Assembly (NCBI GenBank): GCA_964580065.1
Contig: CAZOJE010000003.1
Location: 18,441-82,440 of the forward strand
Direction of reading: 5' to 3'
Origin: an uncultured Candidatus Saccharibacteria bacterium
GTDB lineage: Bacteria > Patescibacteriota > UBA1384 > DTJR01
Length of the DNA stretch: 64,000 nucleotides
A program made the position numbers and the translations under genes. Of the stretch, positions 7,786-59,700 are shown one piece after another. Positions within the stretch are counted from its first letter, which is position 1; every line of letters begins with the position of its first letter. The notes under the pieces are model-generated. The model searched no databases. It was not told the origin of the DNA and saw only the letters and a list, made by a program, of their open reading frames with translations.

Positions 7786-8439
7786 CTATTTAGTGAATCT
7801 AAATGTATTTGCGATTTGATTGAATGTCTCAACTATTAAAGCCCCAGGAGAAGCCGGAGTCAATTGGATTGTGTATTCAATCCCATCATTAACAGCAATA
7901 TAAACTAAATCGTTAATATACCCGCCTACATCGGAAGTTTCATTAGTTCTATCAATCAAGTAAAAGTCAACACCATTTATTGTTTTTTTAGTTTTATTGG
8001 CGTAGCTACTTACAATCTGATTGAGAATTTGATCAGTTGGGTTTGTACTAATAAAAATTACTGCCTCACCTGATTTTTTCGAATAACCAGGATCATAGGT
8101 AAATTGATAGTTAGCAAGACGAAAAGCAACCCTTTGAGAATCAACGGCATTTTCATCATTATTAAATGGCATCCAACCAGAAGAAGGATATTTGATTGAA
8201 TACGAGTATTTATCGTTAGCGTAGGTTTTCCAATTAACTGTCGCATCGGCTGTGGCTGAAGTATTTATGGAGACAGTTGAAGTTGCCGTAGCTGACTCTA
8301 GGGCAGTGGTTTCGCTGGTAGCTGAATTTTTTCCTGCCATAAAACCAATCGCCAAAAATATTACTGCTGTTACCACGATAAAAATTGTTGTCATGACAAT
8401 TTTATGGCCGTCAATCTGCTTGGTTTTTCCTTCTTCCAT
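7786..8439 (-). CDS. Membrane-anchored secreted protein, paralog family member 1 (divergent N-terminus)
   Basis: 217 aa: N-terminal TM anchor, S/T/A-rich linker, C-terminal domain with WKTY.NDKYSYSIKYP motif shared with the 8544 and 9949 genes, ending F.FTK. Confidence 0.55.
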   Translation of the reverse strand: MEEGKTKQIDGHKIVMTTIFIVVTAVIFLAIGFMAGKNSATSETTALESATATSTVSINTSATADATVNWKTYANDKYSYSIKYPSSGWMPFNNDENAVDSQRVAFRLANYQFTYDPGYSKKSGEAVIFISTNPTDQILNQIVSSYANKTKKTINGVDFYLIDRTNETSDVGGYINDLVYIAVNDGIEYTIQLTPASPGALIVETFNQIANTFRFTK

Positions 8440-8543
8440 TATTTGTCTCCTTTTATAATATATTTTTTACCTGGTTAACTCAACGAAAGATATTACCCTT
8501 GTTCACAAAACTTTGCCAGACTAACTCTTTGGCGGCAAATTCT

Positions 8544-9176
8544 TTATTGGGTGAATTTAAATGTAGTTAGGATTTTATCGAATTCCGTCAATGGTTGAGT
8601 GTCAGAATCTTCCATGTAGAAGAAATACAGATACTCATTTGAGCCCACTGTCAAATTTCCCACTGCCAAAGTCCTACTATCTTTAGAGTTCTCGTCAGAT
8701 GAAATTGTTTTTGTGGATTTGATCTTTCCTCCAGTATAGTCCATAGCGTATTGAACGTCAGGGAAAAACGGACCAAAGCCGTCAGGGTTTACATAAAGAT
8801 CCATAGTTGAAGTATTGCTTTTTATGGATAACTTCCTCTCTGGGACCGAGGTAGTATTCTTTTCGAGTTCGTCAGTTGCTGTATAGGTGTTCGGATACTT
8901 AAAACTAAACCCATACTTGTCGTTAGTATATGTCTTCCAGCTTGCTGTTTCATCGGCTGCCGTAGCGCTTGTTGATGTGGTAGCCGACGCTGTTGTTTGC
9001 AAACTGGTCACTTTACTCTGAAGATCGGTGATTTGGGCATTGAGATCATTTTTCTCTTTTGTGGCCTTGTTATTAACGTAGACGTAAGCACCACCACCAA
9101 AAACAACTGCTGTAAGTAAGATTAGCAAAGTAATAGTTACACCAGACATGCCTTTTTTAGCTATTTGCTCGTCCAT
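8544..9176 (-). CDS. Membrane-anchored secreted protein, paralog family member 2
   Basis: 210 aa. N-terminal ~65 aa (TM helix + NDLNAQITDLQSKVTSLQ coiled coil) is nearly identical to the 9230 and 9949 genes. C-terminal domain is variable. Confidence 0.6.
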   Translation of the reverse strand: MDEQIAKKGMSGVTITLLILLTAVVFGGGAYVYVNNKATKEKNDLNAQITDLQSKVTSLQTTASATTSTSATAADETASWKTYTNDKYGFSFKYPNTYTATDELEKNTTSVPERKLSIKSNTSTMDLYVNPDGFGPFFPDVQYAMDYTGGKIKSTKTISSDENSKDSRTLAVGNLTVGSNEYLYFFYMEDSDTQPLTEFDKILTTFKFTQ

Positions 9177-9229
9177 GAAATCTCCTTCAATTTTTATTTG
9201 ATAAATGTTTTTTTATTTTTTCCAACTCT

Positions 9230-9925
9230 TTAAAGGAATTTAAAGCTTGACAATACGTGTTGAAAAACACTGTAATTTATATCACTAGACATTCCTAAGT
9301 AAGAAATTTCATACGTCGCAGTGCCATTAGTTACAAGCACCCCAACCCCAGGGTCTGTGCCTGCCCAGACTGCTTCTAGAGCTGACTGTCCAGCAACAGT
9401 AATATTTTTTTCGGATAAATGCGGTTGCGGTGTAAACTTTTTTAATTGGTCATACCATTGCGAGGCTGTCTCGTCCGAGGGTTTGTTTGCTAATACTTGA
9501 ACCATAATCATATTCGTTGTGTCAGTCTTTGGCGGTGAGAAATCAACAAAAACGCCTGCGTCAGTCGGATCGTTACATAATATGCAGCTCGAAATTTCCC
9601 AGTCGTGGGGATATTCACTGCTCCAGCCGCTTTTACTCGTAAATAAAGACCATTGCGAGCTGTCGCTTGATAGAGATTTCGCCGAGTTAGCGGACGCCGA
9701 ACTCGTTGCACTAGCAGATGGACTAATTGACGATCTTGTCGTTTGCAAACTGGTCACTTGGCTTTGCAGCTCGGTGATTTGGGCATTTAGGTCGTTCTTT
9801 TCTTTCGTGGCTTTGTTATTTACATAAGCATAAGCACCACCACCAAAAACAACTGCTGTGAGTAAGATTAGTAAAGTAACAGTTACACCAGACATGCCAT
9901 TCTTGGTTTGCATTTGCTCATCCAT
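9230..9925 (-). CDS. Membrane-anchored secreted protein, paralog family member 3
   Basis: 231 aa with the same conserved N-terminal module and a different C-terminal domain containing CxxC (SSCILCNDP). Confidence 0.6.
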   Translation of the reverse strand: MDEQMQTKNGMSGVTVTLLILLTAVVFGGGAYAYVNNKATKEKNDLNAQITELQSQVTSLQTTRSSISPSASATSSASANSAKSLSSDSSQWSLFTSKSGWSSEYPHDWEISSCILCNDPTDAGVFVDFSPPKTDTTNMIMVQVLANKPSDETASQWYDQLKKFTPQPHLSEKNITVAGQSALEAVWAGTDPGVGVLVTNGTATYEISYLGMSSDINYSVFQHVLSSFKFL

Positions 9926-9948
9926 AGTGCTTTCCTTTCTAATTTATT

Positions 9949-10590
9949 TTACTTGGTTAATTGGAAGGTGGAGAGGATTTGGGTTAAGACAGCATCAACA
10001 TCCGCCTCATTGATATCAATATTATAATACGCCCTTACACTAACGATGTGATTACTATCTTTGTATTCGGCTTCTGTATATCGATCTTTTTCGTAACTCC
10101 CAATACCTTTTAAATTGGTAATTTTCCAACTAAGTCCATTATATGAGGGGGTTTTTTCTGAAATTATATTATAGCCCTCTGGTCCGCCAGCGTTATCTGT
10201 TATCTCAAAAACTTCTATTGAAACATTTTTATATTTTTCAGACGCAGAAGTTAGTTTCACACCGTCTAGACTGGGTGTATTTATGCTATTTTCCAACCAT
10301 CCGTTGGGGTATTTGAAACTAAAATTATATTTAGAATTGATATACTTTGTCAATTCAGCCGTCGCGCTTGTCGTGGCACTTGTTGATGTGGTAGCCGACG
10401 CTGTCGTTTGCAGACTGGCCACTTGGCTTTGTAGATCGGTGATTTGCGCATTCAGGCCGTTCTTTTCTTTCGTGGCTTTGTTATTTACATAAGCATAAGC
10501 ACCACCACCAAAAACAACTGCCGCTAGTAAGATCAGCAAAGTGATCATTGCACCAGACATGCCTTTTTTGGTTTGCATTTGCTCATCCAT
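9949..10590 (-). CDS. Membrane-anchored secreted protein, paralog family member 4
   Basis: 213 aa with the conserved N-terminal module and a C-terminal KYNFSFKYPNGW motif domain. Confidence 0.6.
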   Translation of the reverse strand: MDEQMQTKKGMSGAMITLLILLAAVVFGGGAYAYVNNKATKEKNGLNAQITDLQSQVASLQTTASATTSTSATTSATAELTKYINSKYNFSFKYPNGWLENSINTPSLDGVKLTSASEKYKNVSIEVFEITDNAGGPEGYNIISEKTPSYNGLSWKITNLKGIGSYEKDRYTEAEYKDSNHIVSVRAYYNIDINEADVDAVLTQILSTFQLTK

Positions 10591-10699: not shown

Positions 10700-10910
10700 A
10701 CCTGACTCGAACCTTCCCGTTTAGGCGCAGATAAAGAGAAAGTGCGCAAATAGGTTAGGGTTGGTGCCGGGGCTTTGGCGGGGTGGAACCGCCAAATTCC
10801 TGACTCGAACCTAATATTGAGTTTGTGTAAAAATAATAAGTACGCGATAAATTTTGAATTTGGTGCCGGGGCTTTGGCGGGGTGGAACCGCCAAATTCCT
10901 GACTCGAACC
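10700..10910. repeat. Direct repeats resembling a tRNA 3' end (two full ~50-bp X units at 10762-10811 and 10861-10910, plus a partial unit at ~10700, each followed by a ~45-bp related Y unit)
   Basis: Reverse complement of X ends ...GGTTCGAGTC...CCCCGGCACCA, the same T-arm and acceptor/CCA end as the adjacent tRNA-Leu, but with a ~25-nt insertion. Seen directly in the sequence. Confidence 0.5.
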
Positions 10911-10957
10911 TCCGCGTTAGGTGCAGATAAAGGGAAAGTGTGCAAACGTTTTAGTGA

Positions 10958-11044
10958 TGGTGCCGGGGAGAGGACTCGAACCTCCACACTTTTGCAAGCG
11001 CCAGCTCCTAAAGCTGGTGCGTCTACCAATTTCGCCACCCCGGC
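10958..11044 (-). tRNA. tRNA-Leu (anticodon TAG), class II with long variable arm, CCA encoded
   Basis: Reverse complement reads GCCGGGGTGGCGAAATTGGTAGACGCACCAGCTTTAGGAGCTGG...GGAGGTTCGAGTCCTCTCCCCGGCACCA. 7-bp acceptor stem, anticodon loop TTTAGGA. Confidence 0.8.
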
Positions 11045-36342: not shown

Positions 36343-36523
36343 AAAGCTTTAAAGCGCGATATGTTATAGTTGATTGTACGTATGATGTGCTATAATTTCT
36401 TATAGAACATTCCGAAAGGGGTGTTTAAGGCAAAAGCCGCTTGTCTATGATGTTTTGGCGGCGCAAATTCCATATTTTCTTCCTTTGCGGGAAGTAAAAT
36501 TCTAAATTGGAGGGGAAAATTCA

Positions 36524-37034
36524 AGTGGCATCTACTGTACCTACATGGGATTTGTTTTTAGCAATATTCATTGCCATTACTGTGTTGTATGGTTTCATGA
36601 TGCAACGCGAAAAAATAATGGCAGCCCTTTTAGCTTCGTATATGGGCATAGTCATCGTTAGCGTTTGGTCAAGCCCAATCAAAGATTTTTTCGAAGGTAA
36701 AAAAACTGTTGCTAACACCTGGATCCAAGCCGATGCTTCACCCGCAACGATTAAAATAATTATTTTCCTGTTGATTGTTGGCCTGGTCGCTTCCAAGGCA
36801 GATCTTTCAATCGGACGTGAAAATACTTTGGCGCCGTTTGAAATCTTGCTTTACTCGGCCGCCACCGGAATTTTAATTGCTGCAACAATTTTTTCTTACT
36901 TGCCCTCCGAGGTTCAGGGATCCATTATCGCCCAAACCAAAGTTATTCACTTTTTGAAAGATTATTATTCTTTGTGGCTCATCATTCCGGTTATTTTAAT
37001 GGTTTTCGTCACTTCTAGGCGGCGAAACTATTAG
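36524..37034 (+). CDS. Hypothetical polytopic membrane protein (CvpA-like?)
   Basis: GTG start 9 nt after GGAGGGG, preceded by an extended -10 (TGcTATAAT) promoter at ~36395. Four to five TM helices. Confidence 0.45.
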
Positions 37035-37131
37035 CTCAACCAGTTGGGTTGATAACAATGAGGATTTTTGTTATTATTTTCCCAGCAAAAATGTTTGCTT
37101 TGTTTTTTTGTAATTTTGATGTTTGAAACTT

Positions 37132-37176
37132 GGGCCAGTAGCTCAGTGGTAGAGCAGGAGCCTTTTAAGCTTCGTG
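37132..37176 (+). pseudogene. 5' fragment of tRNA-Lys (45 nt: acceptor through anticodon arm to variable loop), duplicate of the intact gene
   Basis: Identical to nt 1-45 of the downstream tRNA-Lys. It lacks the T-arm and 3' acceptor strand. Confidence 0.6.
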
Positions 37177-37309
37177 CAAGGGCTTGAGCGGGTAGAACGC
37201 TCAAGTGCCGGACCGCGACGGCGGGAGGCGGGGTCGCGCAAAAATTCAGCAGAATTTTATGCGTGACCGATCCCCAAGGAGATCGAACATTATAAATATA
37301 GGTTAGTTT

Positions 37310-37384
37310 GGGCCAGTAGCTCAGTGGTAGAGCAGGAGCCTTTTAAGCTTCGTGTCGAGGGTTCGATCCCCTCCTGGCCCTCCA
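37310..37384 (+). tRNA. tRNA-Lys (anticodon TTT), CCA encoded
   Basis: GGGCCAG/CTGGCCC acceptor, D-arm TAGCTCAGTGGTAGAGCA, anticodon loop CTTTTAA, T-arm GAGGGTTCGATCCCCTC, CCA. Confidence 0.85.
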
Positions 37385-37512
37385 AGCAAGTACCCCACGC
37401 AAGTGGGGTTTTTGCTTGGAGTGATTTTGGCGCGGGGATCGAAGGCCGCAGGGCTGACTGAGTCCGAGGCCCGCCCCGAAGAAATTTCAGCAGAAATTTA
37501 CTGAGGGGGAGC

Positions 37513-37529
37513 CCCTCCTGGCCCTCCAA
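37513..37529 (+). repeat. Duplicate of the tRNA-Lys 3' end (CCCCTCCTGGCCCTCCA), ~130 bp downstream of the intact gene
   Basis: Exact 17-nt match to the T-stem 3' strand + acceptor + CCA of tRNA-Lys. Confidence 0.55.
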
Positions 37530-37643
37530 ACCTATTTTGCGCAAGCAAAGAGGTTTGTCCTCCGTAGTCCGCCAACTGGCGGACGAAGGATGGACTACCC
37601 GTAACCCATAACTTTACGCGACGGGTTGCGAAATAATAAGTGT

Positions 37644-37882
37644 ATGTATTACGTTTATCTTCTGGAACTGGTCGACAGATCAATCTACGCTGGGTCAACT
37701 AGCGACATAAAGAAAAGATTTACCAAACATAACAAAGGCGATGTTCTGGCAACCAAAGGCAAAAGACCAATCAAATTGGTCTTTTATTGTGTTTTTCCAA
37801 CTAAAGAGGGTTATCAAGTTTGAAAAATATCTCAAATTTGGTTCTGGTCAATCCTTTAGGGACAGGCACTTGGTGAAGTAAG
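37644..37882 (+). pseudogene. GIY-YIG nuclease family small protein (YhbQ/UPF0213-like), apparently frameshifted near 37815-37825
   Basis: MYYVYLLE...SIYAGSTSDIKKRFTKHNKG....KGKRPIKLVFY is a GIY-YIG core. The expected C-terminus (..KFEKYLKFGSGQSFRDRHLVK) continues in the +2 frame after a premature TGA. Confidence 0.45.
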
Positions 37883-37966
37883 CCCAAGTGATACAGCCCG
37901 AACTGATAACCGGCTAAAAGCTGGTTTTTGCTTTATAAATTCGCTAATATTTTGAGCAGGAGGAAA

Positions 37967-39316
37967 ATGGTTAATCACCACGAACTAACTGAAACAAGCT
38001 TTATTCCTGAAGAAACGACCAACGCGCAAGAGCTAAATTTATCAACCGAAGAATCCCCCAAAGAAGAATCGCTTAAGAATGTAGAAGAGGAAAAGGGCAG
38101 AAGGTTTGAAGTCATCGTTTTGCCCAAAATTGCCGAGGATGCAGAAGGAAATGATTATCTAGAACACGCCAAGATTGATCAAGAAAATTTGGCAGACTTG
38201 GAAACACTCATTGATTATCTTAAAAGAATACCGCCAAAATTAGTGTCTGAATACTATAGAGGGCAAATAAAATTCATCATTGATCTATACGATGAATATG
38301 AAAGACGATTGGCCGGCATCCAAAATGCCAGACAAACAGGAGAGTTGGTTGATGAAAAAATAGCAAAACAAACAAAACTATCCGAGCAAGAGGTAGCGCC
38401 CGCAGACGAAATTTACGAAAAACTGTTGCATCATTTTGAAACTTCACCAACAGAGATGATTACCTTGGCTGAAAGTCATATGTCAAGTTATGATTCAATC
38501 AGTGCGGCCCAAGAAGCCGCCGAGTTCAGAGAACCACAGACGGCCGTTATCGTGTTTGATAACCATCAAGACACCCTTGGTAGAGACCGTCCATGGAAAG
38601 GGAATATTTTCCGACTTTTAAGAGAAAAAGGACAGATAGCCGGCGCCATTTTTTTCGGAAATTTTCAGGACACCGTTACCCTCTATTATTCTAAAAGCGA
38701 GGAAAGCTATATTGTGCCAGAGGTTTCCAGCCCAAATACTAAAGGAAAAGAAAGGGTTAAAATTATTGTCCGCCAAGCGTTAGAAGAATTTGCCAAACGC
38801 GGCATTACTAATATGGTTATTTCGATAGACATTGACGTTTTAAGAGCTAGGGAAATCGGCTATACTGCCACGGAATACAACCCCCGAACAATTTTGGGAT
38901 ATTTATCTTCGATAGATTTGTCAGAGGTTGGGCTTAACAAAAAACCCGAAGGATTAACCACAGAAGAAGTGACACAATTAATCAAATATGTCTTCAATTT
39001 CAGCAATAGGAAAAGATTGCTTAACCCCCTTATAGCTTTAGATCACAATCAGAATTCCATGGATCCCATTGGCGCCAGATTATCCGAAATCGGAACGGCA
39101 TTAGAAACAATTTATTCAGAATGTAGCCGCATGGGGATAGAAATCGGGATCAAGCTTAAAGGTGGCGGCCGATATATTGGCGATATTGTCGAACTAAGCG
39201 GTTATGATTATAAAGGACACACCACCCGAGCCGTATCAGCGCTAGCAAAAAAAATAGAAAATCTCTCCGCTGTTAAAAACCCCAAAGAATCTTCAGAGGG
39301 ACCCGAAAGCCAGTAA
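37967..39316 (+). CDS. Hypothetical protein, possible arginase/deacetylase-fold (ureohydrolase-like) domain
   Basis: ATG at 37967 after GGAGG. VFDNHQD (DxHxD) and ISIDIDVL (SxDxD) motifs resemble the metal sites of the arginase superfamily. Inference only. Confidence 0.45.
   Translation: MVNHHELTETSFIPEETTNAQELNLSTEESPKEESLKNVEEEKGRRFEVIVLPKIAEDAEGNDYLEHAKIDQENLADLETLIDYLKRIPPKLVSEYYRGQIKFIIDLYDEYERRLAGIQNARQTGELVDEKIAKQTKLSEQEVAPADEIYEKLLHHFETSPTEMITLAESHMSSYDSISAAQEAAEFREPQTAVIVFDNHQDTLGRDRPWKGNIFRLLREKGQIAGAIFFGNFQDTVTLYYSKSEESYIVPEVSSPNTKGKERVKIIVRQALEEFAKRGITNMVISIDIDVLRAREIGYTATEYNPRTILGYLSSIDLSEVGLNKKPEGLTTEEVTQLIKYVFNFSNRKRLLNPLIALDHNQNSMDPIGARLSEIGTALETIYSECSRMGIEIGIKLKGGGRYIGDIVELSGYDYKGHTTRAVSALAKKIENLSAVKNPKESSEGPESQ
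39178..39260 (+). repeat. Direct repeat copy 1 (~80 bp; 3' coding end of the 37967 gene)
   Basis: CTAAGCGGTTATGATTATAAAGGACACACCACCCGAGCCGTATCAGCGCTAGCAAAAAAAATAGAAA is exactly repeated at 40681-40747. Similarity with mismatches extends ~14 bp further upstream. Confidence 0.8.
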
Positions 39317-56711: not shown

Positions 56712-59700
56712 TTACTCAAAAATTTTCTTTAGTTCATCGACCAAATCGTCAGAAAGGGCAATCTTGGTTTTAGTTTTGGCAAATTCAAAATGATTATTCT
56801 TTTTATAAGAAAGTACGAGTTCATCCTCACCCATATTTTCATCTACTATCGTTTTTATTTTTAAAATTTTTTCCTTGCCTGTGCCCTTGGGCAAAATAAC
56901 ATACACTTTTCCGTCAAAAGCAAAAGCATACTGTTTTTTCTTCAAGGCGGCATTTAGTTTTTCCGTAATATCTTCCGTTTCAGGCGCCTCATTCAAATCA
57001 ATTTCAACGATTTTATCCTCGTCTGTGCCAAGCGTTACAACGTGTTGCTCCTGTTGAGCATACTTGCTTCCACTATAAGCTTCAAATTTCAAATCGCGAA
57101 TTTTACTCGGATCAAATTTTTCCCCTTTTTCGGCCAAAATCTTAATTTCGTTGTCTTTGGTAGAAATTTTCCCCGTTACCAAAACAACATTGTCAGCTTG
57201 CCAAACTTCACCGTCTTGCTCGAGTGTTTTGGGAAAAACAAGAACTTCCGTTTTGCCAGACAAGTCCTCGATCGTGGCAAAGGCCATTGTTGAACCGTTT
57301 TTCGTGTTTATTTTTTTAACCGTTTGAATTATACCGCCCACTTTGACTTTTTTCCCTTCCATTCCCAACGTCAAAGTGTTAATCGGGTGCGACACGGCTA
57401 AATTCAGTTTCGGCCCCAGCTCTTTCAGAGGGTGTTCGCTAATATAAATGCCCAAAAGCTCTTTTTCCCATGCCAGTTTGTCATCACGGCTAGCTTCGGC
57501 AACCTCCGGTAAATCAAGTTTACCTATTTCAATATCGGCCGAAAGCACTTCGCCAAACAAACCAATTTGCGACGATTTAATTTGTTTAGCCGTGTCCTGA
57601 ATTCTTTTTAAAATTACTTCCATACCTTGCAAAACCCGATTGCGTTCCACCAATGAATCAAGAGCGCCAGACTTAGCTAAGGCCTCGAGAATTTTTTTAT
57701 TTAAAACCGTTCTTTCGCCTGTGCCTTCAACGTCAGTTTTGCTCATACGATCAATAAAATCTTCAAAATTTTTGAAACGGCCATTTTTTTTACGTTCACG
57801 AACGATCACCCGAGCCGGATTGGTCCCAATATTTTTAATTGCCGCCAAGCCAAAGCGAATATTACCCGATTCTTTAACCACACCAAAATCAACAAAACTT
57901 TCGTTGATATCGGGCGGCAAAACCTCAATGCCCATTCTCTCGCATTCGCCGATCTCAATCGCAATTCGATCAATATCGTCAAGATCATTTGTGAGAAGCG
58001 CCGCCATGAAACACTGTGGGTAGTTGGCCTTAAGATAGGCCGTTTGATAAGCAATCATGGCATAGCAAACCGCGTGAGATTTATTAAACCCATAGGCGGC
58101 GAAATCCTGCAACATGGCAAAAACTTTCTCGGCATCAGCTTTAGTGACACCATTGTTTTGTGAACCAGCAATAAATTTGACTTTCATTTCCGCCATCAGT
58201 TTGGCGATTTTTTTGCCCATGGCTTTGCGCAATTTGTCCGCTTCGCCACCGGTGAAACCAGCCATATCGCGAGAAATCTGCATCACCTGTTCCTGATAAA
58301 CCGGAATGCCATAAGTAACTTCGAGGGCCTTTTTGGTCATCGCGTGAGGATAGTTGATCGGCTCTCGGCCATTTTTGCGTGCAATGAAGGTGTCGATAAA
58401 CTGCATTGGACCGGGACGATATAAAGCCACCATCACAGCCACATCATCAAGCGTAGTCGGCTTCAATTCTCTGATATAACGTTTCATACCTGAAGACTCA
58501 AGCTGAAATACGCCTGTTGTTTCACCCTTACCCAAAAGTTCAAAAGTTTTTTTGTCGTCCAAAGGAAGATTGTGAATATCCAGTTTGTCGCCCGCCACCG
58601 CTTCGATTATTTCCAAAGCGCGCTCAATCGTGGTTAAGTTTGACAAACCCAAAAAGTCCATTTTGAGCAATCCCAGCTCCGCTACCGGATACATCGAATA
58701 TTGAGTCACCTGCTTCACACCCTCTTTTTGCGCCTGTTGTAGCGGCACGTAGCAGGTTAGCTCGTCCTTAGTGATAACGAAAGCACTGGCGTGTTGGCTG
58801 GCGTGACGCACCGTTCCCTCCAACTTAGTCGCCATATTAATGAGACGTTTGGCGCGAGGATCGCTTTCGTAAACGGCACGTAATTCCGGCGCATCTTTGA
58901 CTGATTTCTCCAAGGGAATGTGGCGGCCCTGCACCGGCGGCGGGACCACTTTAGCGATCGCGTCAACCTCCGCATAAGGATAACCGAGAGCGCGGCCAAC
59001 ATCTCTCACAGCCGCGCGCGCCGCCATCGTTCCAAAAGTAATAATGCCCGCCACCTTTTCTTCACCGTAGCGGCCGACAACATAGCCAAGCACTTCGGCG
59101 CGCCGGTGGTCAGCAAAGTCAAGATCGATATCAGGCATTTCGTGGCGATCAGGATTTAAAAATCTTTCAAAAAGTAAATCGTATTTCAGCGGATCGGCAT
59201 CAGCAATCTGCGTCAAATAAGTCACCAATGAGCCTGCCGCCGAGCCCCTGCCCGGTCCCACCATAATGCCATTTTCTTTGGCCCAGTTAACGTAGTCGGA
59301 AACAATCAAAAAGTAGCTCGAAAAACCCATATCATTAATCACCGACAGCTCATAATTCATTCTTTCGGTGATAATTTTCATTTTTTCCGGACTGGCTTTA
59401 GGATATCTAACCGGAATCCCTTTTTGACAAAGCTCGCGTAAATATTCAGCATCTGTTTTACCCTTCGGCAAGGGAAAGCTTGGCAAAAGATTAGCTTCAA
59501 ACGGGATTTCCAAATCGCACTTGTCGGCAATTTCCCGCGTATTCGAAATGGCCTCCGGCGTTTCGGCAAAAACCTTAATTAATTCCTCTGGGTCGCGAAG
59601 CGAAAAGTCGCCGTCATAAGTCATTCGGTTAGCGTCATCAACTGTTTTCCCCGTTTGCACGCAAATTAAAATATCGTGCGCCTCGCGATCTTCACGGTTG

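What the first reader, a model, noticed from the sequence alone, without database searches (positions are those of the whole stretch)
37132..37886. tRNA-Lys flanked by partial copies of itself, separated by GC-rich structured spacers, next to a frameshifted GIY-YIG gene
An intact tRNA-Lys(TTT) at 37310-37384 is preceded (~130 bp upstream) by an exact copy of its first 45 nt. It is followed (~130 bp downstream) by an exact copy of its last 17 nt, including CCA. The two ~130-bp spacers are much more GC-rich than the surrounding genome. Each contains a conserved hairpin with the same loop (AAATTCagcaGAATTT / AAATTTCagcaGAAATTT) plus additional GC stems, which suggests structured RNA. Immediately downstream is a small GIY-YIG nuclease gene that is frameshifted. 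Possible explanations are serial integration/excision scars at a tRNA attachment site, processed spacer RNAs, or a split/permuted tRNA precursor arrangement.
Basis: seen in the sequence. Interest (0 to 1): 0.55.

Follow-up and report, generated by a model that had tools for sequence, protein, structure and literature searches.

The report
Structured element flanking tRNA-Lys gene
The two "spacers" beside this lysine tRNA gene are two copies of a previously undescribed, conserved folded element. It sits where the T-loop would be in partial copies of the tRNA, at a locus that is an insertion hot spot in a group of ultra-small bacteria (Berkelbacteria).

Summary
An intact tRNA-Lys(UUU) lies at 37310-37384. 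Its first 45 nt are copied exactly at 37132-37176 and its last 17 nt at 37512-37528. Both spacers are GC-rich and strongly folded.

Comparison with about 60 related Berkelbacteria loci shows that the spacers are two diverged copies of one element family, which I call E. E replaces the T-loop of a partial tRNA-Lys copy.
- **Upstream unit (U):** tRNA 1-45/53, hairpins P1-P3, a T-loop/T-stem remnant, an invariant anti-T-loop block, an AT-rich linker, then the real tRNA.
- **Downstream unit (D):** terminator, anti-T-loop block, P2'-P3', then the tRNA 3' end.

U occurs in 7 lineages. 19 of its 31 base pairs show compensatory changes, and its G-U pairs fall on the tRNA strand only. Its divergence tracks host divergence, so it is old, mostly vertically inherited and kept by selection. 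No Rfam family matches it. Relatives with empty sites show that both units are insertions.

The same locus also collects GIY-YIG cassettes, serine-recombinase islands and cargo genes. The GIY-YIG gene belongs to a family that sits directly after the tRNA-Lys 3' end across Patescibacteria. In this window it carries a 2-nt deletion. The split or permuted tRNA reading is rejected. The function of E and the way it was inserted are inferred, not shown.

The parts
37049..37077 (+). Promoter-like site: TTGATA, 17 nt, then TATTAT preceded by TG. It lies upstream of the 5' partial copy. The same layout (TTGAAT, 17 nt, TGTTATCAT) is seen in L009/L011.
   Evidence: Consensus scan. Conservation was read from the sequences. 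Function is inferred.
37130..37176 (+). 5' partial copy of tRNA-Lys: positions 1-45 plus 2 upstream bases, an exact match. It covers the acceptor 5' strand, the D arm and the anticodon arm.
   Evidence: (D1). Rfam tRNA scores it 23.7 bits, below the gathering score of 29.
37177..37275 (+). Upstream copy of element E. It consists of a degenerate T-stem 5' strand (37177-37182), P1 (37183-37190 / 37198-37205), P2 (37207-37229), P3 (37232-37247 / 37252-37268, loop AGCA) and a remnant of the T-loop 3' half and T-stem 3' strand, CGATCCCC (37268-37275).
   Evidence: Single-sequence fold. Consensus fold and covariation across 7 lineages. Covariance model R1 scores it 128.8 bits.
37278..37288 (+). Anti-T-loop block GGAGATCGAAC, the reverse complement of tRNA positions about 53-63. 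The core GATCGAACATT is invariant in all 7 upstream units. It can pair with 37268-37275 (P4) or with the T arm of the downstream tRNA.
   Evidence: I11; invariant columns. The pairing alternatives are inferred.
37289..37309 (+). AT-rich linker with a -10-like TATAAA at 37291-37296. It is homologous among the upstream units (ATTTAWAA...).
   Evidence: Alignments. A promoter role is inferred only.
37310..37384 (+). Intact tRNA-Lys(UUU) with encoded CCA.
37380..37421 (+). Terminator hairpin. The core is 37392-37409, followed by a T run. The outer stem pairs with the tRNA's own CTCCA 3' end.
   Evidence: terminator scan; I1.
37434..37443 (+). Downstream anti-T-loop block GGGGATCGAA. Together with the terminator it forms a long hairpin with tRNA positions 51-76.
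   Evidence: I17. Folds of -52 to -60 kcal/mol in four lineages.
37427..37511 (+). Downstream, more degenerate copy of element E: P2' (about 37444-37471), P3' (37474-37488 / 37493-37508, loop AGCA), then GAGGGGGAG.
   Evidence: R1 match 37427-37530, 26.3 bits, E = 3.5e-5. Fold. Alignment.
37512..37528 (+). 3' partial copy of tRNA-Lys, positions 59-75 (CCCCTCCTGGCCCTCCA), an exact match. It is followed by the ancestral trailer AACCT...
   Evidence: The ancestral flank is shown by the empty sites in L055 and L052 and by L006.
37558..37643 (+). Structured leader of the GIY-YIG cassette. It has a long-range stem GTAGTCC/GGACTAC and a hairpin at 37603-37627 with the conserved loop ATAACTTTACGCGAC.
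   Evidence: Fold z = -6.6. The conserved loop with covarying stems is seen in L062, L063, L065 and L067.
37644..37881 (+). GIY-YIG nuclease gene of the 78-aa family, disrupted by a 2-nt deletion at 37806-37810. Frame 1 stops at 37821-37823. The remainder reads in another frame to 37881. The gene is absent from the 98.6%-identical strain L013.
   Evidence: Homologues. Comparison with L013.

Best explanation
**What the locus is**

The tRNA-Lys(UUU) gene of these Berkelbacteria is an insertion hot spot. The two spacers are two diverged copies of one non-coding, GC-rich element family (E; core about 95 nt, 120-130 nt with its flanks). E always occupies the T-loop position of a tRNA-Lys copy.

Each partial tRNA copy is the part of a tRNA-Lys copy that lies on one side of E:
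- The upstream unit keeps tRNA 1-45/53. It has lost the acceptor 3' strand.
- The downstream unit keeps the T-stem 3' strand, the acceptor 3' strand and CCA.

In both cases a complete gene was preserved next to the insertion.
- The upstream unit brings a new 5' part plus an AT-rich linker.
- The downstream unit brings a new 3' end plus a terminator.

This is the logic of elements that integrate into tRNA genes and rebuild them. Here, however, the insert is tiny and encodes no recombinase.

**What E is**

E is not a neutral scar. In the upstream unit, the T-stem closes a junction of three hairpins (P1, P2 and P3). These hairpins are maintained by compensatory substitutions on the tRNA-sense strand. 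The element has been inherited mostly vertically.

**How it most likely works (inferred)**

The upstream unit is transcribed from the conserved promoter as one precursor with tRNA-Lys. RNase P cleavage at tRNA position +1 releases it as a stable, tRNA-derived structured RNA.

Its invariant anti-T-loop block has two possible partners:
- the unit's own T-loop remnant, or
- the T arm of the nascent tRNA.

That choice gives a possible cis switch on tRNA-Lys folding or processing.

The downstream unit is an older, decaying copy lying beyond the terminator.

The GIY-YIG gene is a separate cassette that targets the tRNA-Lys 3' end. In this window it is inactivated.
For: **Shown**
- The repeats and folds are real.
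- Homologous upstream units are found at tRNA-Lys in 7 lineages whose neighbouring protein is 61-99% identical.
- The upstream fold is strongly supported by covariation:
  - 97.7% of cells are paired.
  - 19 of 31 pairs have double changes, against 0-3 in the slid controls.
  - 0 of 500 shuffles reach the observed values.
  - The non-Watson-Crick cells are 13 G-U, 5 purine-purine and 0 A-C.
- The model built from upstream units finds downstream units in L022/23 (34.7 bits), the window (26.3), L013 and L006.
- E-core identity tracks host protein identity (Spearman 0.80).
- Empty sites exist:
  - L055 and L052 carry tRNA-CCA followed directly by AACCTGTTA, the flank that follows the 3' fragment in L006.
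  - L011 lacks the 181-nt upstream unit of L009 although the flanks are 100% identical.
- Partial copies match each genome's own tRNA at 98-100%, although the tRNAs differ between lineages.
- The anti-T block matches each genome's own T-loop. In L023 the block is TGTGGGATTCGAA, a 13 of 13 match.
- The locus is a hot spot:
  - Downstream flanks differ between relatives.
  - Serine recombinase genes abut the tRNA in L007, L046 and L058.
  - accD/accA cargo is bounded by a lone P3 plus a tRNA fragment in L023.

**Inferred**
- Transcription, processing and the anti-T switch.
Against: - There are no expression data.
- No recombinase or transposase is present in the window. 20 ORFs of plausible size (186-683 aa) were scanned.
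- No autonomous relative of E was found in viral, phage or plasmid collections.
- The tRNA-derived 5' part is not uniformly conserved. In L058 the anticodon arm is deleted, and in L038 the acceptor strand is diverged. Only E and the anti-T block look constrained.
- The T-stem closure and P4 use invariant bases, so covariation cannot choose between them.
- Palindromic protein-binding DNA sites could imitate part of the covariation.
- The L009/L011 presence/absence difference could come from repeat collapse in a k-mer assembly.
- The Spearman test uses non-independent pairs.
Confidence: 0.5

Rival explanations
1. E is an active, non-autonomous mobile element, comparable to a miniature integrative element, a CIME (cis-mobilizable element) or an attC-like cassette. 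It inserts into the tRNA-Lys T-loop by site-specific recombination supplied in trans. The hairpins are folded single-strand recombination sites, and the T-loop/anti-T pair imitates the target duplex. The partial tRNA copies are attL/attR repeats from recent events.
For: - Relatives have empty sites, and presence/absence differs between 100%-identical flanks.
- The same P3-GTGAC module bounds a 2.1-kb accD/accA cargo segment in L023.
- An inverted remnant is present in L018.
- The L023 downstream unit has a P3 nearly identical to that of the window's upstream unit.
- The strand-specific wobble pairs also fit folded single-stranded DNA.
- Serine recombinase islands use the same tRNA.
- Tandem accretion of decayed elements at tRNA genes is a described process (PMC5704250).
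Against: - E divergence tracks host divergence. This argues for vertical descent of the upstream unit, not repeated transfer.
- No recombinase is in the window.
- No E was found in the viral, phage or plasmid collections.
- The junctions after the T-stem remnant vary in length, unlike a fixed crossover point.
Confidence: 0.2
2. The duplications were created by GIY-YIG homing endonucleases that cut the tRNA-Lys gene. Repair from cassette-bearing alleles, with template switching, produced partial tRNA copies around cassettes. E is a passenger or an immunity feature.
For: - The 78-aa GIY-YIG family sits immediately after ...CTCCA of tRNA-Lys, or of a tRNA-Lys 3' fragment, in unrelated Patescibacteria: L062, L063/64, L065/66 and L067/68.
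- A second GIY-YIG family sits between a 5' fragment and tRNA-Lys in L007, L017 and L062.
- The gene is present in the window but absent from a 98.6%-identical strain.
Against: - Upstream units occur without any GIY-YIG gene nearby: L009, L046 and L055.
- These proteins are bare catalytic domains of 78-90 aa with no recognisable DNA-binding domain.
- No cleavage data exist.
- The window's copy is broken.
Confidence: 0.12
3. The spacers are neutral, decaying scars of old integrations, with no function at the RNA or DNA level.
For: - The downstream units decay. The L009 copy is AT-rich with a mismatched 3' fragment, and the L004 copy has a different hairpin in place of P3.
- The tRNA-derived 5' parts carry deletions and insertions.
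Against: - The upstream unit has 19 of 31 pairs with compensatory changes and several invariant single-stranded blocks. These persist across lineages whose neighbouring intergenic DNA cannot be aligned.
- A 130-nt insert between 45-52-nt direct repeats should be lost quickly unless selection retains it (inference).
Confidence: 0.05
4. The arrangement is a split or permuted tRNA, or a tRNA with a giant T-loop intron. The outer 5' and 3' fragments would be joined to make a second tRNA-Lys.
For: - The outer fragments (1-45 and 59-75) together nearly cover one tRNA.
- Their acceptor strands are complementary (I21).
Against: - An intact tRNA lies between them.
- Upstream and downstream units occur separately in other genomes. 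L046 and L055 have only the upstream unit. L004 and L023 have only the downstream unit.
- There is no group I intron signal, and the size is too small.
- Positions 46-58 are missing or altered.
Confidence: 0.02

Closest known systems
Integrative elements that insert in the T-loop region of tRNA genes and rebuild the gene, with tandem accretion of decayed CIME-type remnants (PMC5704250; Ms6 attB in a tRNA-Ala T-loop, PMC1762012)
   Same: - A direct repeat of the tRNA 3' end bounds the insert, and the gene stays intact.
- Relatives have empty sites.
- Several unrelated inserts are stacked at one tRNA.
- There is no recombinase gene inside the small units.
   Different: - The units are only 130-180 nt.
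- One of them duplicates the 5' part of the tRNA, from position +1, not the 3' part.
- The insert carries a fold kept by compensatory changes.
- The insert appears vertically inherited.
- No ancestry from an ICE or IME is visible.
tRNA-linked repeats of the E. coli tyrT operon and their rtT RNA (Rfam RtT family). This comparison is recalled from my own knowledge and no paper was read for it here.
   Same: - Repeats next to a tRNA gene each contain a copy of the tRNA 3' end.
- An RNA is processed from the tRNA transcript.
   Different: - There was no match to any Rfam family at E up to 10.
- Here a 5' copy also exists.
- The insert sits in the T-loop position.
- The organism is a Patescibacterium.
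tRNA-derived structured RNAs, such as the tmRNA tRNA-like domain and the YrlA tRNA-like module
   Same: A tRNA-like core carries a large foreign structured domain.
   Different: - The best YrlA score is 18.9 bits against a gathering score of 69, and that match lies on the real tRNA.
- The upstream unit has no acceptor stem.
- The extra domain sits in the T-loop.
Group I introns in Patescibacteria tRNA genes (bioRxiv 10.1101/2025.07.03.662931)
   Same: - The phylum is the same.
- tRNA genes are interrupted by structured RNA.
- Partial tRNA pieces flank an insert.
   Different: - Those introns sit at position 35/36 of the anticodon loop and match RF00028.
- E is about 95 nt, sits in the T-loop position and gives no intron match.
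- In the window an intact gene lies beside it.
Integron attC sites and other folded single-strand recombination sites
   Same: - Structure is conserved more than sequence.
- The pairing is strand-specific.
- Cassette-like stacking occurs downstream of a strong promoter.
- The T-loop GTTCGAT and anti-T ATCGAAC resemble the core (GTTRRRY) and inverse core (RYYYAAC) sites, with one deviation.
   Different: - No integron integrase is present.
- There are three hairpins, not one bulged hairpin.
- The resemblance is by inspection only.

Membership tests
tRNA (RF00005) | A complete cloverleaf that scores above the gathering threshold | tested here: met
   37310-37384 scores 69.2 bits, and ARAGORN calls Lys(UUU). 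The 5' partial copy scores 23.7 bits, below 29, so it is not a tRNA gene.
Integrative element at a tRNA gene (att duplication) | A direct repeat of a tRNA segment bounds the insert, and the gene is left intact | tested here: met
Integrative element at a tRNA gene (att duplication) | An empty site in related genomes with the same outer flank | tested here: met
   - For the downstream unit: L055 and L052 compared with L006.
- For the upstream unit: L011 compared with L009. An assembly caveat applies.
Integrative element at a tRNA gene (att duplication) | An integrase or recombinase encoded by the element | tested here: not met
   - The units have no coding capacity.
- No recombinase was found among 20 window ORFs.
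- tblastn with the L007 serine recombinase finds nothing in the window.
Integrative element at a tRNA gene (att duplication) | Excision or a circular intermediate | not testable with these tools
   Needs read-level data or PCR.
CIME (cis-mobilizable element) | Flanked by attL and attR, lacks integration and transfer genes, and derives from an ICE or IME | tested here: inconclusive
   The first two features are met. Derivation from an ICE or IME is not visible. Definition from PMC5704250.
Any Rfam 15 family for the spacers (including RtT, group I intron and known ribozymes) | A covariance-model match | tested here: not met
   cmscan at E up to 10 on 36900-38100 returns only tRNA matches and chance-level hits.
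Conserved structured RNA (generic criterion) | Compensatory base changes that support a common fold in several lineages | tested here: met
   19 of 31 pairs, 97.7% of cells paired, with the controls far lower. This applies to the upstream unit only.
Split or permuted tRNA gene | No contiguous gene for that tRNA, with halves that must be joined | tested here: not met
   A contiguous gene is present. The units occur independently in other genomes.
GIY-YIG nuclease (PF01541) | A domain match and an intact reading frame | tested here: inconclusive
The frame is broken by a 2-nt deletion relative to the 78-aa homologues.
IS200/IS605-type miniature element (PATE) | Terminal hairpins together with a Y1 transposase in the genome | tested here: inconclusive
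   Hairpins are present. A Y1_Tnp gene was seen only in the Saccharibacteria locus L067, with no tblastn match in the window or the other loci.

The most novel reading that the evidence does not exclude
E may be a new class of RNA domain embedded in a tRNA T-loop. Under this reading, a tRNA-Lys paralogue had its T-loop replaced by a three-hairpin junction. It is co-transcribed with its parent tRNA and uses an invariant anti-T-loop segment as a switch on that tRNA's folding or maturation.

Alternatively, the same fold could be the recognition structure of an element that homes to T-loops as single-stranded nucleic acid.

Neither case has a described counterpart in bacteria.
Probability: 0.3. 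Interest if true: 0.8.

Novelty: new variant of a known kind. Interest (0 to 1): 0.62.

Why it matters
- **A candidate new RNA family.** It adds a covariation-supported RNA structure that Rfam lacks, in a phylum whose non-coding RNAs are poorly known.
- **A new kind of tRNA-gene occupant.** It shows that a tRNA gene in a very small genome can carry small, structured, long-lived inserts that rebuild the gene on either side. Prophages and genomic islands are not the only occupants.
- **A practical annotation rule.** Partial tRNA copies with GC-rich inserts next to tRNA-Lys and tRNA-Leu should not be read as pseudogene noise or as split tRNAs.
- **A testable link to GIY-YIG nucleases.** It ties two small GIY-YIG families specifically to tRNA-Lys(UUU) genes across Patescibacteria. 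That makes the target of these otherwise uncharacterised nucleases testable.

Tried and rejected
**Searches that found nothing useful**
- Rfam at permissive thresholds on the region found no family for the spacers. Nine related loci at gathering thresholds gave only tRNAs and one LOOT RNA.
- An exact-pattern scan of viral contigs for the P3/T-loop junction gave 0 hits.
- blastn of the upstream element against phages and plasmids gave nothing meaningful.
- Exact-protein look-ups of the arginase-like neighbour and of the truncated GIY-YIG ORF found nothing on record. The ApbE look-up returned only a 1.5-kb contig. The frameshift could therefore not be checked in another assembly.
- Covariance model R1 found no E in the non-Berkelbacteria loci that carry GIY-YIG genes.
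- Pfam scans of 20 window ORFs found no recombinase or transposase, only housekeeping genes.

**Leads considered and dropped**
- In L007, a 12-nt match of the GIY-YIG ORF to the tRNA anticodon arm (CCTTTTAAGCTT, coding RPFKL) looked like a tRNA piece. It is not conserved in the L017 orthologue, so I treat it as chance.
- GC-rich double-hairpin motifs elsewhere in the loci lie at the position of the upstream dnaJ gene. By inspection they read as its glycine-rich coding region, so I dropped them. I did not confirm the reading frame.
- R1 gave a weak match next to tRNA-Leu (10863-10988, + strand, E = 0.02). It is antisense to the tRNA and I judged it spurious. It did lead to the tRNA-Leu fragment array.
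- IS91-type target motifs (GTTC/CTTG) and terminal inverted repeats were checked by eye. The ends of E do not match each other.
- A kink-turn reading of the P2 internal loop was considered. The bulged strand is too short for the canonical motif.
Full report
**1. The observation**

The window holds two tRNA genes. One of them is tRNA-Lys(UUU) at 37310-37384 (Rfam 69 bits).

- The first 45 nt of the tRNA, plus two upstream bases, recur exactly at 37130-37176.
- The last 17 nt, CCCCTCCTGGCCCTCCA, recur exactly at 37512-37528.
- The spacers are 133 and 127 nt long. Their GC content is 0.57-0.62, against about 0.42 for the window.
- Both spacers share a hairpin with an AGCA loop. That motif occurs nowhere else in the 64 kb.
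- Both fold far better than shuffled sequence (z = -5.6 and -3.3).
- Two independent assemblies of the same strain carry the same arrangement (L001/L012 and L013), so this is not an assembly artefact.
- No Rfam family other than tRNA matches the region, even at E = 10.

**2. Organism and comparative material**

The membrane protein encoded just upstream (36507-37034) has 67 homologues. The named ones come from Candidatus Berkelbacteria and other Patescibacteria MAGs. From these I collected about 60 loci with the same neighbourhood, dnaK - x - dnaJ - membrane protein - tRNA-Lys.

DNA beyond the tRNA differs in almost every relative:

- metal-efflux genes in L004
- an unknown gene plus a GIY-YIG gene in L006
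- a large serine recombinase whose gene overlaps the tRNA 3' end in L007/L015
- further serine recombinases in L046 and L058
- a class II aminoacyl-tRNA synthetase gene (Pfam tRNA-synt_2) in L009

The locus is therefore an insertion hot spot.

**3. Anatomy of the two units**

*The upstream unit (U).* A homologue of spacer 1, attached to a 5' partial tRNA copy, lies directly upstream of tRNA-Lys in seven lineages: the window, L009/10/14, L017, L038, L046, L055 and L058. Their neighbouring protein is 61-99% identical to the window's. The unit has a fixed order:

1. tRNA 1-45/53
2. P1, 8 bp with a 7-nt loop
3. P2, an outer GCC/GGC stem, a conserved GSA/GA internal loop and an inner stem
4. GG
5. 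P3, 16 bp with an AGCA loop
6. GTGAC-CGATCCCC, which is the T-loop 3' half and T-stem 3' strand, plus 0-5 further tRNA bases
7. GATCGAACATT, invariant, the reverse complement of the T-loop
8. an AT-rich linker
9. the intact tRNA

The "spacer" is therefore a structured insert that sits exactly where the T-loop of a tRNA-Lys copy should be. The 45-nt copy is the part of that tRNA copy lying 5' of the insert.

*The downstream unit (D).* It has the order tRNA, terminator, anti-T-loop block, P2', P3', then the tRNA 3' end.

- The covariance model built only from upstream units (R1) finds downstream units in L022/23 (34.7 bits, E = 1e-7), in the window at 37427-37530 (26.3 bits, E = 3.5e-5), in L013 and in L006.
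- The P3 of the L023 downstream unit is almost identical to the P3 of the window's upstream unit.
- Both spacers therefore belong to one family, which I call E.

**4. Is the fold real?**

- RNAalifold on the seven upstream units predicts the T-stem closing a junction of P1, P2 and P3. 19 of 31 pairs are kept through changes on both sides.
- On a fixed structure, 97.7% of cells pair. Versions slid by 1-3 columns reach 34-45% pairing and 0-3 double-change pairs. None of 500 shuffles reaches the observed values.
- The inner stem of P2 also covaries when read by eye: CCGC/GCGG, GGCAC/GTGCC, ATCGC/GCGAT.
- The non-Watson-Crick cells are 13 G-U (including one G-U invariant in all seven), 5 purine-purine and no A-C. 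The pairing is therefore specific to the strand that also encodes the tRNA.
- This points to RNA. Folded single-stranded DNA of that strand is the less likely alternative.
- Caveat: the T-stem closure and the alternative hairpin P4 (CGATCCCC with GGGGATCG) use invariant bases, so covariation cannot choose between them.

**5. Insertion, inheritance and decay**

*Empty sites exist.*

- In L055 and L052 the tRNA is followed directly by AACCTGTTA... In L006 the same flank follows the 3' fragment of the downstream unit.
- L009 and L011 are 100.000% identical over 5143 and 1145 nt and differ only by the 181-nt upstream unit. L011 is a k-mer assembly that might have collapsed the 52-nt repeat, so this case carries a caveat.

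*The partial copies follow their own tRNA.*

- Each genome's partial copies match its own tRNA at 98-100%, although the tRNAs differ between lineages.
- The anti-T block follows each genome's own T-loop. In L023 it is TGTGGGATTCGAA, a 13 of 13 match.

*The upstream unit looks old and vertically inherited.*

- E-core identity between lineages rises with identity of the neighbouring protein (Spearman 0.80 over 21 non-independent pairs).
- That is the expected pattern for vertical descent. Repeated transfer would not give it.
- A 130-nt insert between 45-52-nt direct repeats should be lost easily, so its persistence implies selection (inference).

*Downstream units look less constrained.*

- The L009 copy is AT-rich with a mismatched 3' fragment.
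- The L004 copy has a different hairpin in place of P3.
- The window's downstream anti-T block, GCGCGGGGATCGAA, still matches a CCCGC-type T-stem. Close relatives (L004, L009) have that T-stem. The window's own tRNA has CCCTC.

*E remnants occur elsewhere at this tRNA.*

- A lone P3-GTGAC followed by a tRNA fragment lies 2.1 kb beyond the first 3' fragment in L023. accD and accA lie in between.
- An inverted remnant lies upstream of the tRNA in L018.

**6. The long hairpin**

In four lineages, including a Saccharibacteria locus, tRNA positions 51-76 pair with the trailer. The T-loop and T-stem 3' strand pair with the anti-T block, and CTCCA pairs with the outer terminator stem. The MFE is -52 to -60 kcal/mol. 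The sequences differ between lineages but the pairing is kept. I cannot say whether this matters in read-through RNA or at the DNA level.

**7. The GIY-YIG gene**

- The repaired ORF matches PF01541 (E = 3.7e-16). Its homologues are 78 aa.
- Alignment shows a 2-nt deletion at 37806-37810...PTKE|RVIKFEKYLK.... The deletion removes the conserved FE.YLK segment from the reading frame.
- The gene is absent from strain L013. That strain is 98.6% identical up to 37565 and then diverges.
- In every retrieved locus that carries this family, the cassette starts right after ...CTCCA of tRNA-Lys(UUU) or of a tRNA-Lys 3' fragment. These loci are L063/64, L067/68 (Saccharibacteria), L065/66 and, with a degenerate remnant, L062.
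- Each cassette has a conserved structured leader. Its hairpin loop (RTAGCTTYAYGCGAM) is conserved while the stem covaries.
- A second GIY-YIG family (86-90 aa) sits between a 5' tRNA fragment and tRNA-Lys in L007/15, L017 and L062.
- The gene in the window is therefore a separate cassette specific to tRNA-Lys, and here it is a pseudogene.

**8. How it most likely works**

*Shown:* E is a conserved, strand-specific fold in the T-loop position of partial tRNA-Lys copies. Both units are insertions relative to empty sites. The upstream unit is old and under selection.

*Inferred:*

- The conserved promoter at 37049-37077 drives one precursor that holds the upstream unit and the tRNA. The same layout is seen in L009/L011.
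- RNase P cleavage at tRNA position +1 releases the upstream unit as a stable RNA.
- Its anti-T block can pair with its own T-loop remnant or with the T arm of the nascent tRNA. That gives a possible switch on tRNA-Lys folding or processing.
- How the units first arose is not resolved. The options are site-specific recombination in the T-loop, nuclease-induced repair, or partial duplication after an insertion.

I put about 0.8 on [quoted passage not shown] and about 0.3 on the specific cis-acting RNA role.

**9. Comparison with known systems**

- The locus works like tRNA-targeted integrative elements with tandem accretion of decayed remnants (PMC5704250; T-loop attB of phage Ms6, PMC1762012). 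It fails the defining test of an encoded recombinase, and the upstream unit behaves like a resident gene.
- It recalls the E. coli tyrT-linked repeats and their rtT RNA (from my own knowledge). There is no Rfam match, however.
- It is distinct from the group I introns recently reported in Patescibacteria tRNA genes. Those sit at anticodon position 35/36 and match RF00028.
- The split or permuted tRNA reading is rejected.

**10. Verdict**

The finding is real, and it is more interesting than a simple scar. It is a new variant of a known kind: an Rfam-absent structured element family embedded in tRNA-Lys fragments. Its function is unproven.

Noticed in passing
window 10700-10960 (- strand), downstream of tRNA-Leu(TAG) at 10958-11044: The window's other tRNA is also followed by an array of partial 3' copies. 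The units lie at 10910-10861, 10811-10762 and, truncated, 10713-10704. Each unit is GGTTCGAGTC (T-loop), a 29-nt hairpin insert (AGGAATTTGGCGGTTCCACCCCGCCAAAG) and CCCCGGCACCA. The first two units are identical over 50 nt. The spacers are 47-49 nt long, and the first and third resemble each other.
   Followed up: partly
L062, L063/64, L065/66 and L067/68; window 37558-37881: A 78-aa GIY-YIG family lies immediately 3' of ...CTCCA of tRNA-Lys(UUU), or of a tRNA-Lys 3' fragment, in unrelated Patescibacteria including Saccharibacteria. Each copy has a conserved leader hairpin (loop RTAGCTTYAYGCGAM, covarying stem).
   Followed up: partly
L007 5779-6073, L017 about 880-1240, L062 380-729: A second GIY-YIG family (86-90 aa) sits between a tRNA-Lys 5' fragment and the intact tRNA-Lys. 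In L062 the ORF reads into the tRNA and stops in the D-loop.
   Followed up: partly
L017 1246-1330, L038 3093-3122, L062 390-445, L007 5720-5800: The tRNA-Lys 5' fragments carry extra GC-rich hairpins of 10-50 nt, several with CTTCGG (UUCG-type) loops. They are inserted in the D-loop or the variable loop. In L017, similar double hairpins occur in two different loops of the same fragment.
   Followed up: no
L023 983-3132 (- strand): accD and accA (acetyl-CoA carboxylase carboxyltransferase subunits) lie between two tRNA-Lys 3' fragments. The outer fragment is preceded by a lone E-type P3 hairpin. The segment looks like a cargo block without a recombinase.
   Followed up: partly
L007 6107-7663, L046 3351-4748, L058 3875-4429: Large serine recombinase genes on the opposite strand abut or overlap the 3' end of tRNA-Lys. 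The island starts in L007, L038 and L058 share similar sequence (ttataactttaaggtttgaaagc...).
   Followed up: partly
L007 9913-10044: A LOOT RNA (RF03000, 73.9 bits) lies inside the serine-recombinase island.
   Followed up: no
L067 383-994: A Y1 (IS200/RAYT-like) transposase gene lies 1.6 kb upstream of the Saccharibacteria tRNA-Lys. That tRNA carries a D-like unit and a GIY-YIG cassette.
   Followed up: no
window 7786-10590 (- strand): Four tandem paralogous genes encode small proteins. Two match PsbP_2 weakly, and the two nearest tRNA-Leu share nearly identical N-termini (MDEQMQTK...).
   Followed up: no
window 57036-57161 (- strand): A weak tblastn similarity to the GIY-YIG query (E = 0.03) falls inside a 1208-aa ORF. 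It is probably chance.
   Followed up: no
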